Shown here piece by piece: positions 20,070-21,245 of a stretch of 64,000 bases of DNA (positions are counted from its first letter, which is position 1; the number at the start of each line of letters is the position of its first letter). The position numbers were made by a program, and so were the translations under genes. The notes beneath the pieces are model-generated. The model saw only the letters and a list, made by a program, of their open reading frames with translations, ran no database searches and was not told where the DNA came from. The stretch lies in NCBI RefSeq assembly GCF_003018255.1, contig NZ_CP027440.1; one strand, 5' to 3'. The DNA is from Escherichia coli (GTDB taxonomy: Bacteria > Pseudomonadota > Gammaproteobacteria > Enterobacterales > Enterobacteriaceae).

Positions 20070-20073
20070 TTTT

Positions 20074-20108
20074 CTCTGCAAAATCTCTGCAAAACTCCTC
20101 TGCAAAAC
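20074..20108. repeat. three direct copies of CTCTGCAAAA(C) at the ompW-prophage junction (candidate attL / recombinase binding sites)
   Basis: Copies at 20074-20083, 20085-20095, 20098-20108 directly after ompW stop and abutting the integrase 3' end. Confidence 0.5.
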
Positions 20109-20129
20109 TGGTCATCAAATGACCAGTTT
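20105..20129. terminator. perfect inverted repeat overlapping the integrase stop codon
   Basis: AAACTGGTCATcAAATGACCAGTTT followed by T-run; the last int codons lie inside it. Confidence 0.55.
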
Positions 20130-21245
20130 TTTCCACTCTTTACCGCGTACATCGTTGTAAATATCGGTCATTTTTTGATTCGAATGACCCAGCAAAATTT
20201 GGGTATCAATTCCCTGCTCCCTGAACAATCGCTCTGATAAAGATCTCTGCTCATGGAAAGAGGGTGGAGTGCCATTAGCGCGCCAGTTGTAATCCACAGA
20301 ATCCCGGGCTTTTTTAAATGCAACTGTCAACGTTGCTGGCTTAACCATCCCGCCGCGCTTAGCTGTCCCTTTAGCATGATGGTGGTGCAATAACCACGGA
20401 CTAAGAACGCAATCGCGACAGGATGACACTACATCATCCAGGGTGAGATTTAATTTATCGCAACGCAGAGCCAGAGGGATGGCAATCCGGGTTCCTGTTT
20501 TTTGCTGTTCGACATGAAGATAACCATCCCTGATATCCGAAAATTTCATTTTGCAAATATCTGAAAGGCGCTGGCCTGTCATCAGCGCCAGCAGCATACC
20601 ACGTTGTAAAAAGTAACCATCCTTTTCCGCTGCATTATAAATCATCATCCACTCATCAAAGGTCAGTCGTTGCCGTGATATCCGTACCTGTGGTTTTTTT
20701 GCCGATTCTGCAGGGTTAAAGCCTGGCGAGACATCGCCCGTTTGCTGGGCCTCCCGGAAAACATCAATCAGTACTTTCCTGAAAATTTGTCCCATTCTGT
20801 TATGTCCTTTTGCCTTGTAATCTTCCAGCACCGATACCACATCTTTTACGGTTATGGCATCTAATGGTCTGGTACCAAAACGTTCATCAAATACCCTGAG
20901 AGGGGATGCTTTCTGTTTCAGTGTGTTGAGTTTGATCTCTCCGTTTTCATATCTTTCCTGTTGAATTTTTCGGTAACTATTCAGAAAAACAGAAACGGTT
21001 GATGAACCACCGGTATCACGAATAATTTTCTCCTGCAGAGTGAGCATTTGTTCCATTTGTTGCCTGGCAAGACGGCTGTTCGCTTCTGCTGCAATAGCTT
21101 CTGCCTGTTTCTGGTCAATACTGCCGAGCCCGTGATTTTTTCCTGTTATGGGATGCCTGTAACGCCAGTAAACTTTGTTATTTCTTTTGTCAAAATACGG
21201 AGATAATCCCGGAACTTCAGTTTTATATTTTCGTGGGCGCGCCAT
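20115..21245 (-). CDS. int: phage integrase (tyrosine recombinase)
   Basis: 376 aa; C-terminal LLGHSNQKMTDIY catalytic tyrosine context; adjacent to att-like repeats. Confidence 0.9.
   Translation of the reverse strand: MARPRKYKTEVPGLSPYFDKRNNKVYWRYRHPITGKNHGLGSIDQKQAEAIAAEANSRLARQQMEQMLTLQEKIIRDTGGSSTVSVFLNSYRKIQQERYENGEIKLNTLKQKASPLRVFDERFGTRPLDAITVKDVVSVLEDYKAKGHNRMGQIFRKVLIDVFREAQQTGDVSPGFNPAESAKKPQVRISRQRLTFDEWMMIYNAAEKDGYFLQRGMLLALMTGQRLSDICKMKFSDIRDGYLHVEQQKTGTRIAIPLALRCDKLNLTLDDVVSSCRDCVLSPWLLHHHHAKGTAKRGGMVKPATLTVAFKKARDSVDYNWRANGTPPSFHEQRSLSERLFREQGIDTQILLGHSNQKMTDIYNDVRGKEWKKLVI

What the first reader, a model, noticed from the sequence alone, without database searches (positions are those of the whole stretch)
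20070..20130. ompW-int junction: triple direct repeat plus a perfect palindrome covering the integrase stop
Three CTCTGCAAAA(C) copies and the palindrome AAACTGGTCATcAAATGACCAGTTT lie in the 60 bp between the ompW stop and the int 3' end. These are candidates for the attL core and flanking recombinase or host-factor sites, and the palindrome probably terminates both convergent genes. The integration site is not present in K-12.
Basis: partly seen in the sequence, partly recalled or inferred. Interest (0 to 1): 0.35.

Follow-up and report, generated by a model that had tools for sequence, protein, structure and literature searches.

The report
Integrase arm sites at prophage junction
The three short repeats beside the prophage integrase gene are most likely the integrase's accessory ("arm") binding sites in a lambda-like attachment site, and the real crossover point lies about 115 bp upstream inside ompW, so this is an ordinary part of a known and very common E. 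coli prophage.

Summary
CTCTGCAAAA occurs three times (20074, 20085, 20098). A 12-bp inverted repeat with a 3-nt loop (20104-20130) covers the int stop codon.

This is the left junction of the published ompW prophage (PPompW, 121-bp att). A junction of this type is present in about 30% of complete E. coli genomes.

The repeats are not the att core. Comparing attL, attR, attB and contiguous attP, plus a secondary-site lysogen in sfaF, puts strand exchange at about 19949-19962, inside ompW. Everything from there rightwards is phage DNA. That includes a replacement ompW 3' end, the repeats and the hairpin.

The repeats fit lambda-type P' arm sites:
- Int has the lambda arm-binding domain.
- A fourth copy lies about 134 bp left of the core in every attP examined.
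- Only the spacers between repeats vary across lineages.
- Phage 21, Klebsiella phage Kp4865-4 and vB_EcoS-813R8 carry their own triple repeat at the same place, as does lambda (P'1-P'3).

The hairpin followed by six T's is plausibly a phage-supplied terminator for ompW, and less certainly for int.

Low novelty. A side observation deserves follow-up: integration rewrites what is probably the last surface loop of OmpW.

The parts
19431..20069 (+). Chimeric ompW. The host part runs to about 19955. The phage-supplied replacement 3' end runs from about 19956 to the stop codon.
   Evidence: The ORF is. Residues 1-184 are identical to K-12, and all 7 differences fall in residues 185-194. DNA identity to K-12 drops after 19970.
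19949..19969 (.). att core / strand-exchange region. TGGTACATGGATAT (19956-19969) is invariant in attB, attL, attR and attP. The secondary-site junction falls at 19955|19956.
   Evidence: Alignment A1; attR of JNE120442; contiguous attP; sfaF secondary site.
19951..20071 (+). The 121-bp 'att' duplication as published and annotated for PPompW. This is the ompW-like 3' segment carried by the phage.
   Evidence: repeat_region 91-211 of LC567822.1, with int ending at 255, maps to these window coordinates. The 121-bp attL/R is stated in PMC8112680.
20074..20084 (+). Putative arm-type Int site P'1 (CTCTGCAAAAT).
20085..20095 (+). Putative arm-type Int site P'2 (CTCTGCAAAAC).
20098..20108 (+). Putative arm-type Int site P'3 (CTCTGCAAAAC). 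Its AAAAC forms the base of the hairpin stem.
20104..20132 (.). Hairpin with a 12-bp stem and 3-nt loop. It is followed by T6 on the + strand and by TTTTG on the - strand. It is a putative phage-borne terminator for ompW and possibly for int.
   Evidence: arms. MFE -17 kcal/mol for the 81-nt + strand segment (z -5.2) and -14.9 kcal/mol for the - strand. The stem is invariant and the loop is variable across lineages. The simple terminator scan did not flag it.
20115..21245 (-). int, a lambda-type tyrosine integrase with an N-terminal arm-DNA-binding domain.
   Evidence: PF09003 E 7e-22 and PF00589 E 2e-17. 37% identity to lambda Int over the full length. 50.5% identity to phage 21 Int.
21223..21471 (-). 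xis (excisionase). It overlaps int by 23 nt.
   Evidence: PF07825 E 3.6e-7. ORF coordinates. Lambda xis and int also overlap by 23 nt.

Best explanation
Positions 20070-20130 are the outer end of the P' arm of a lambda-type phage attachment site, seen here as attL.

The phage integrates by Int-mediated exchange inside ompW, at about 19949-19962. It carries its own copy of the last ~115 bp of ompW, so the gene stays intact.

The three CTCTGCAAAA(C/T) repeats lie directly after that ompW-like stop codon. They are the P'1-P'3 arm-type sites. The N-terminal domain of Int would bind them while its C-terminal domains act on the distant core. A fourth, co-oriented copy about 134 bp left of the core (P1-like, next to an IHF-like site) would be the partner in the other arm.

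The hairpin plus T-run that overlaps the int stop is a phage-borne intrinsic terminator. In the lysogen it would end the ompW transcript, whose native terminator is displaced to attR. It may also end int transcripts coming from the other side.

Shown here: the site geometry, the Int domain content, the conservation pattern and the positional homology with lambda and phage 21. Inferred: Int binding to the repeats, and termination at the hairpin.
For: 1. Int carries the lambda arm-binding domain and the catalytic domain. It aligns with lambda Int over its full length at 37% identity. The lambda catalytic residues R212, K235, H308, R311, H333 and Y342 are matched in that alignment, read using my knowledge of lambda numbering.

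2. Contiguous attP in phage record CP025907.1 and in IMG/VR loci has one (T/C)CTGCAAAAC at -134 from the invariant block and three at +119, +130 and +143, all in the same orientation. attR of JNE120442 and of ABU 83972 carry the P-arm copy.

3. Among four P-arm lineages, homology begins exactly at the P-arm motif. Sequence further left is unrelated.

4. In the P' cluster only spacer bases and the first base of copy 3 vary. TCTGCAAAA is invariant, while the adjacent ompW-like segment is highly polymorphic.

5. Relatives with diverged Int proteins have their own triple repeat at the same place.
   - Phage 21 (50.5% identity): TTCCCCAAAA three times, spacing 12 and 13, plus a fourth copy in the P arm followed by a perfect IHF consensus.
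   - Kp4865-4 (52.5%): TTATCAAAA three times, spacing 11 and 13.
   - vB_EcoS-813R8 (43.9%): TC(T/C)CCAAAA three times, spacing 11 and 13.
   - Lambda: my scan with the lambda arm-site sequences recalled from the literature finds three adjacent matches (P'1-P'3), the last overlapping the int stop.

6. The repeats are absent from the empty K-12 site. The 70-nt junction is found in 1652 of 5426 genomes, and all 30 listed rows lie on an int gene.

7. The hairpin folds well (81-nt segment MFE -17 kcal/mol, z -5.2) and is followed by T6. Its stem is invariant while the loop varies, including a TGA-to-TAA stop change in L075. The native ompW-yciE hairpin stays at attR.
Against: - There is no binding or footprint data.
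- Only one P-arm copy is found. No inverted P2-like copy appears at up to 2 mismatches, so the site set differs from lambda's five.
- No IHF-like site at up to 2 mismatches lies between the core and the P' repeats, although they are about 115 bp apart.
- The IHF pattern is not enriched overall in that locus.
- Natural variants with 2 or 4 copies exist, so the number three is not strictly required.
- The consensus terminator scan did not flag the hairpin.
- Half of the stem encodes the Int C-terminus, so conservation of the stem is confounded with coding constraint.
- The attR used is from a related strain. The right end of this window's own prophage lies beyond the window.
Confidence: 0.78

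Rival explanations
1. The repeats and/or palindrome are the att core where strand exchange occurs.
For: They lie close to the host/phage gene boundary as judged from ORFs alone. One copy of the motif is also present near attR.
Against: - The copy near attR sits about 134 bp inside the phage P arm, not at the junction.
- attB in K-12 has no copy.
- The sequence shared by attB, attL, attR and attP is TGGTACATGGATAT at 19956-19969.
- The secondary-site junctions in sfaF switch from host to phage at the position equivalent to 19955|19956.
- The published att ends at 20071, before the repeats.
Confidence: 0.02
2. The triple repeat is a neutral tandem duplication produced by replication slippage in an A-rich intergenic stretch, with no function.
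For: Copy number varies in rare strains: 2 copies in O55:H7 TB182A and 4 in EC04. The units are short and adjacent.
Against: - A fourth copy sits at a fixed position in the other arm in every attP lineage.
- The motif is invariant while the spacers vary.
- Triple repeats of different sequence lie at the same place in phage 21, Kp4865-4, vB_EcoS-813R8 and lambda.
- 1620 of 1652 genomes keep at least 80% of the 70-nt junction.
Confidence: 0.06
3. The repeats are binding sites for another factor (Xis or a host protein), or they act at the RNA level as part of a new ompW 3'UTR, for example as a small-RNA or RNA-binding-protein target. They are not Int arm sites.
For: In the lysogen they would be transcribed as the ompW 3'UTR, ahead of a hairpin with a U-tail. 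No binding data assign them to Int.
Against: - The same motif in the P arm is not part of that transcript.
- The repeats are present in free-phage attP whatever the host gene context.
- From my knowledge of lambda, Xis sites lie in the P arm near the core, not beside int.
- There is no Rfam match.
- Positional homology with lambda's P'1-P'3 arm sites; that those lambda sites are experimentally mapped Int sites is from my own knowledge.
Confidence: 0.08
4. The palindrome is not a terminator. It is conserved because it encodes the Int C-terminus, or it is a protein-binding palindrome.
For: - The right arm and part of the left arm encode K-K-L-V-I-stop of Int.
- No compensatory changes are available to test pairing, because the stem is invariant.
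- It was not flagged by the terminator scan.
- Only 4 of the 12 stem pairs are G-C.
Against: - The left arm's AAAAC lies outside int and matches the right arm perfectly.
- The fold is much better than shuffled sequence (z -5.2 and -3.3).
- It is followed by T6.
- ompW has lost its native downstream hairpin to attR and has no other hairpin before int.
- Phage 21 and Kp4865-4 also carry a hairpin with a T-run after the replaced host-gene end.
Confidence: 0.25

Closest known systems
Bacteriophage lambda attP (P1, P2 / core / P'1-P'2-P'3) with Int, Xis and IHF
   Same: - Int has the arm-binding and catalytic domains.
- xis overlaps int by 23 nt in both.
- Three tandem co-oriented arm sites lie directly beside the int 3' end.
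- One co-oriented site lies about 135-140 bp to the left of the core, next to an IHF-like site.
   Different: - The motif is CTCTGCAAAAC rather than lambda's arm-site sequences.
- The P' sites are about 115-145 bp from the core rather than about 55-85 bp, because the arm encodes the ompW 3' end.
- No inverted P2-like site and no H'-like IHF site were detected.
- The core lies inside a gene rather than between gal and bio (the lambda location is from my own knowledge).
- A hairpin overlaps the int stop.
Phage 21 (and, from my own knowledge, e14) integration into icd with a phage-borne replacement 3' end
   Same: - This is the closest named Int in the phage collection (50.5% identity).
- It integrates into the 3' part of a host gene and carries a substitute 3' end (icd pseudogene in M61865.1).
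- It has three tandem repeats beside the int stop, plus one copy in the P arm followed by an IHF consensus, and a phage-supplied hairpin after the substitute gene end.
   Different: - The target is icd rather than ompW.
- The motif is TTCCCCAAAAC.
- The P' repeats lie further from the P-arm copy (about 360 bp, against about 255 bp here).
- The terminator hairpin lies before the repeats, not after them.
PPompW prophages of STEC O145:H28 (Nakamura et al. 2021, PMC8112680)
   Same: Same integration site, the same int/xis module (94.6% DNA identity) and the same 121-bp att duplication. The authors obtained attP by PCR of excised circles.
   Different: The passages read from that paper define att as the 121-bp duplication and do not mention arm-type repeats or the hairpin. 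This window's prophage is a mosaic relative, closest to that of strain JNE120442.

Membership tests
Lambda-type (heterobivalent) tyrosine-integrase attachment site | The integrase has an N-terminal arm-DNA-binding domain in addition to the core-binding and catalytic domains. | tested here: met
   PF09003 E 7.1e-22 (residues 2-71). PF00589 E 2.2e-17. PF22022 is weak.
Lambda-type (heterobivalent) tyrosine-integrase attachment site | Catalytic residues of tyrosine recombinases (R, K, H-x-x-R, H, Y) are conserved. | tested here: met
   The BLASTP alignment with lambda Int matches GQR, KTG, HExRSL and LLGH...Y. Residue numbering is from my knowledge of lambda Int.
Lambda-type (heterobivalent) tyrosine-integrase attachment site | A repeated arm-type motif, distinct from the core sequence, is present in both arms of attP. 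| tested here: met
   One copy at -134 and three at +119, +130 and +143 in contiguous attP sequences of three lineages. The P-arm copy is also seen in two attR sequences.
Lambda-type (heterobivalent) tyrosine-integrase attachment site | The Int N-domain binds the arm repeats, and they are required for recombination. | not testable with these tools
   Needs EMSA or footprinting and att-site mutagenesis.
Lambda-type (heterobivalent) tyrosine-integrase attachment site | Sites for accessory bending proteins (IHF) lie between the arm sites and the core. | tested here: inconclusive
   A conserved WATCAANNNNTTR-like site lies at -106 in all P arms, and is a perfect match in L043 and ABU 83972. None at up to 2 mismatches lies between the core and the P' repeats, and the pattern is not enriched in that locus.
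Lambda-type (heterobivalent) tyrosine-integrase attachment site | An excisionase gene is adjacent to int. | tested here: met
   PF07825 E 3.6e-7. The ORF at 21223-21471 overlaps int by 23 nt.
att core (crossover sequence) | The sequence is identical in attB, attP, attL and attR and lies at the host/phage switch point. | tested here: not met
   The repeats and palindrome are absent from attB and are not at either junction. The shared block is 19956-19969, and the secondary-site junction is at 19955|19956.
Intrinsic (Rho-independent) terminator | A stable stem-loop is followed directly by a U-run on the transcribed strand. | tested here: met
   12-bp stem, 3-nt loop. The 81-nt + strand segment folds at -17 kcal/mol (z -5.2) and is followed by U6. 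The - strand folds at -14.9 kcal/mol and is followed by UUUUG. The simple scan did not flag it, and the stem has only 4 G-C pairs.
Intrinsic (Rho-independent) terminator | Transcripts end at the U-run in vivo. | not testable with these tools
   Needs Term-seq or 3' RACE in a lysogen.

The most novel reading that the evidence does not exclude
The junction may act as a lysogenic-conversion device and not only as recombination machinery.

Integration replaces OmpW residues 185-194, which I infer to be the loop before the last beta-strand. The replacement is a phage-encoded version that differs between phage lineages:
- KYKSGVTTVK (this window)
- SYKFNGTPVK
- SYKLNGAPVK
- KYKSDGRKLAKGSYSD, a version 5 residues longer

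Integration also gives ompW a new 3'UTR and terminator.

If the swapped loop changes recognition of OmpW by colicin S4, TraN-alpha conjugation partners or OmpW-dependent phages, then about 30% of complete E. coli genomes carry a phage-rewritten surface receptor.
Probability: 0.15. Interest if true: 0.55.

Novelty: new member of a known kind. Interest (0 to 1): 0.17.

Why it matters
This corrects where the att core of the ompW prophages lies. It also gives a concrete, testable arm-site motif, (C/T)TCTGCAAAA(C), for an integrase module found in roughly 30% of complete E. coli genomes, including STEC lineages where this prophage hosts Stx2a phages.

Knowing the full attP (about 290 bp, from the P1-like site to the third P' repeat) helps with three things:
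- drawing prophage boundaries;
- designing excision and integration assays;
- explaining why int-proximal ompW-like sequences turn up inside other prophages.

Mechanistically it is a routine lambda/phage-21-type arrangement.

Tried and rejected
- I searched the window for attR (the ompW 3' fragment or yciE). It is not there; the prophage runs past 64000. I used attR from the closest genome, JNE120442, as a proxy. The two prophages are mosaic relatives.
- The consensus terminator scan did not flag the hairpin.
- Rfam at E up to 1 found nothing in 19300-21600.
- A scan for an inverted (P2-like) arm copy at up to 2 mismatches found nothing conserved.
- A scan for IHF consensus in the P' arm at up to 2 mismatches found nothing between the core and the repeats.
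- Most IMG/VR prophage calls stop 3 nt after the int stop, so only 10 of 80 loci had downstream sequence.
- A literature search for phage 21 arm-type sites found no relevant paper in the held library.
- A search for any report of prophage-driven OmpW loop replacement found none.
- The exact 7-bp overlap region cannot be fixed. Three placements around 19949-19962 all fit the primary and secondary junction data.
- The C at 19955 (G in K-12 and in the JNE attR) could be either a host or a phage polymorphism.

Full report
**1. Observation**

The window region reads: ompW stop TAA (20067-20069), TTTT, CTCTGCAAAA, T, CTCTGCAAAA, CTC, CTCTGCAAAA, CTGGTCAT-CAA-ATGACCAGTTTT, TTCC.

- The three 10-mers at 20074, 20085 and 20098 are the only exact copies in 64 kb.
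- A triple non-overlapping 10-mer cluster within 40 nt occurs once in the window. It occurred in none of 300 Markov-1 random windows.
- The inverted repeat has 12-nt arms (20104-20115 and 20119-20130), 100% complementary, with a 3-nt loop.
- ORFs: ompW 19431-20069 (+), int 20115-21245 (-), xis 21223-21471 (-).
- The int stop codon sits at the junction of the left arm and the loop.

The inter-stop gap is 45 bp, not 60.

**2. Context**

The window is E. coli tonB-yciABC-ompW followed by a lambdoid prophage.

- The ompW-int junction (900 bp) is found with at least 80% coverage in 1714 of 5426 complete E. coli genomes. The best match is strain JNE120442 at 99.9%.
- Prophage-free strains such as K-12 match only through the ompW stop. 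K-12 has ompW directly followed by yciE.
- The phage collection returns the 'PPompW' prophages of STEC O145:H28 at 94.6%. Their records annotate a 121-bp 'duplication due to insertion', which maps to window 19951-20071.
- Nakamura et al. 2021 (PMC8112680) describe integration into ompW with a 121-bp attL/R. They determined attP by PCR of excised circles.

The prophage and its site are therefore already published.

**3. Where the core is**

attR is not in the window. In JNE120442 it lies about 54 kb downstream: phage P arm, then ccagtgTGGTACATGGATATtgatacc, then the native ompW 3' end (as in K-12), the native hairpin, and yciE.

A contiguous attP is present in phage record CP025907.1 and in several IMG/VR loci.

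The 12-sequence alignment of attL, attR, attB and attP (A1) shows:
- TGGTACATGGATAT (window 19956-19969) is invariant in all twelve sequences.
- Left of it, attL follows the host and attR/attP follow the phage.
- Right of it, attL and attP share a diverged ompW-like sequence.

OmpW in the window is identical to K-12 for residues 1-184. All 7 differences lie in residues 185-194.

Independent mapping comes from a secondary-site lysogen. E. coli ABU 83972 carries the same Int (WP_000113674.1) in a prophage inserted into the F1C usher gene sfaF/focD. The three sequences are:
- intact sfaF: catgaCGGTC|agtcatatcg
- attL: catgaCGGTC|tggtacatgg
- attR: aatctacCGGTC|agtcatatcg

Only CGGTC is shared. 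Exchange therefore occurred at or next to the position equivalent to window 19951-19957.

The exact 7-bp overlap cannot be fixed from sequence. It lies within about 19949-19962, roughly 115 bp upstream of the first repeat.

**4. What the repeats are**

*The integrase.* Int has the lambda Arm-DNA-binding domain (PF09003, E 7e-22) and the catalytic domain. It is 37% identical to lambda Int end to end, with the catalytic residues aligned. Xis belongs to the lambda excisionase family. The xis/int overlap is 23 nt, as in lambda.

*Site geometry.* In every contiguous attP, a copy of (T/C)CTGCAAAAC lies at -134 from the invariant block. Three copies lie at +119, +130 and +143, all in one orientation. 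The P-arm copy is followed at -106 by an IHF-like site, AATCA(G/A)NNNGTTA. This site matches WATCAANNNNTTR perfectly in L043 and in ABU 83972.

*Boundary of homology.* Four P-arm lineages are unrelated to one another to the left of the motif and homologous from the motif inward (A3). This is what is expected if the motif is the outermost functional element of attP.

*Conservation pattern.* In the P' cluster the only variable positions are the spacers and the first base of copy 3. TCTGCAAAA is invariant. The neighbouring ompW-like segment varies heavily, including a 15-nt insertion in strain E2528-C1.

*Copy-number variants.* Rare variants exist: 2 copies in O55:H7 TB182A and 4 in EC04.

**5. 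Comparative test**

A tblastn search with Int shows the nearest named relative is phage 21 Int (50.5% identity). Others are Klebsiella phage Kp4865-4 (52.5%), vB_EcoS-813R8 (43.9%), HK022 (37.9%) and lambda (36.5%). Their N-terminal domains align at 37-54% identity to ours.

| Phage | Motif beside the int 3' end | Start-to-start spacing | Gap from last repeat to int stop | Other features |
|---|---|---|---|---|
| This window | CTCTGCAAAA x3 | 11, 13 | 7 nt | Fourth copy at -134 in the P arm |
| Phage 21 | (C/T)TTCCCCAAAA x3 | 12, 13 | 11 nt | Fourth copy about 360 nt away in the P arm, followed by AATCAAACGGTTG; icd-like 3' end and a hairpin in between |
| Kp4865-4 | (G/T)TTATCAAAA x3 | 11, 13 | 16 nt | Hairpin with T-run upstream of the repeats |
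| vB_EcoS-813R8 | TC(T/C)CCAAAA x3 | 11, 13 | 64 nt | Lies beside potC |
| Lambda | P'1-P'3 | 10, 10 | P'3 overlaps the int stop | Co-oriented P1 about 135-140 bp left of the core |

Sources; positions. The lambda positions come from my scan with arm-site sequences recalled from the literature.

The position and arrangement are therefore conserved across the family, while the sequence changes with the Int lineage. This is the pattern expected of arm-type sites. Actual binding is inferred, not shown.

Differences from lambda:
- No inverted P2-like copy was found.
- No H'-like IHF site was detected in the longer P' arm.

**6. The hairpin**

- As RNA, the + strand segment forms the 12-bp stem (81-nt MFE -17 kcal/mol, z -5.2) followed by U6. 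The - strand forms the same stem (-14.9 kcal/mol, z -3.3) followed by UUUUG.
- The stem is invariant across lineages. The loop varies, and in L075 the change converts the int stop from TGA to TAA.
- After integration, the native ompW-yciE hairpin (GACCCCGTA...TACGGGGTC) remains at attR. The phage hairpin is then the only terminator-like structure downstream of ompW.
- Phage 21 and Kp4865-4 likewise carry a hairpin with a T-run downstream of the replaced host-gene end.

I rate a terminator role for ompW as likely, and a role for int as possible. Caveats:
- The scan did not flag it.
- Only 4 of the 12 stem pairs are G-C.
- Half of the stem is Int coding sequence.
- There is no Rfam match.

**7. 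Verdict**

The feature is real and non-random, but ordinary. It is the P' arm (three arm-type Int sites) plus a 3' hairpin of a lambda/phage-21-type attP in a published, very common prophage family.

In novelty terms this is a new member of a known kind. I did not find the arm motif of this Int lineage described in the papers read here.

**8. Side observation: the OmpW loop swap**

The more interesting point lies beside the finding. The phage-supplied ompW end rewrites residues 185-194. From standard beta-barrel topology, I infer these form the last extracellular loop. The replacement differs among phage lineages.

OmpW is the colicin S4 receptor (PMC2649078 abstract). It is also the TraN-alpha partner in conjugation, where single loop residues matter (bioRxiv 10.1101/2023.02.09.527952).

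I found no paper noting this prophage-driven swap.

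Noticed in passing
window 19983-20012 (OmpW codons 185-194): Integration replaces the OmpW segment NYKLGGAQQH (K-12) with the phage-encoded KYKSGVTTVK. Other phage lineages carry SYKFNGTPVK, SYKLNGAPVK, or KYKSDGRKLAKGSYSD (5 residues longer). This is probably the last surface loop of a protein used as a receptor by colicin S4 and TraN-alpha. No paper on this was found.
   Followed up: partly
L094 1-520 and L095 3290-3480 (E. coli ABU 83972, NC_017631.1): A prophage with the same Int is inserted at a secondary site inside the F1C fimbrial usher gene sfaF/focD and splits it. The junctions share only CGGTC with the intact gene. This was used here to map the crossover.
   Followed up: yes
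L091 400-440 (O55:H7 TB182A); L092 388-436 (strain EC04): Natural copy-number variants of the repeat: two copies in TB182A and four in EC04. TB182A also has a seventh T in the T-run, and its annotated int ORF is extended.
   Followed up: partly
L096 2100-2520 (phage 21, M61865.1); L097 60-120 (Klebsiella phage Kp4865-4); L098 1470-1510 (vB_EcoS-813R8): Each related integrase has its own triple direct repeat ending in CAAAA(C), with near-identical 11-13 nt spacing, beside the int 3' end. This gives a family-wide rule for predicting arm sites.
   Followed up: partly
L049 2629-2896 (IMG/VR contig): An attP-like junction whose bases just left of the core (CATGTCGGTC) look like a host ompW allele and not like the usual phage P arm (CCTGCCAGTG). 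This suggests recombination between the phage and host ompW-like segments. The same C at 19955 is seen in this window.
   Followed up: no
window about 19102-19191: By position relative to ompW, the stretch between yciC and ompW corresponds to the 90-bp YkgJ-family pseudogene fragment annotated in K-12 and JNE120442. The ABU 83972 prophage carries a YkgJ-family gene near its right end, and the PPompW paper traces another prophage-borne attB to the ykgJ/ecpE region.
   Followed up: no
window 36984-37145: Two phage-borne tRNA genes (anticodons CAT and TCG). The equivalent pair in JNE120442 lies just after the DNA-methyltransferase gene, a few genes downstream of the antiterminator Q gene. The CAT tRNA is annotated as tRNA-Ile in the related RefSeq genome.
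   Followed up: no
window 24915-32026, 43619-47764, 60409-61050: The prophage is a mosaic relative of the one in the closest genome (JNE120442). Blocks at 98-99% identity alternate with stretches that are unmatched or match at only 87-96%. The int/att module itself is 99.3% identical.
   Followed up: no
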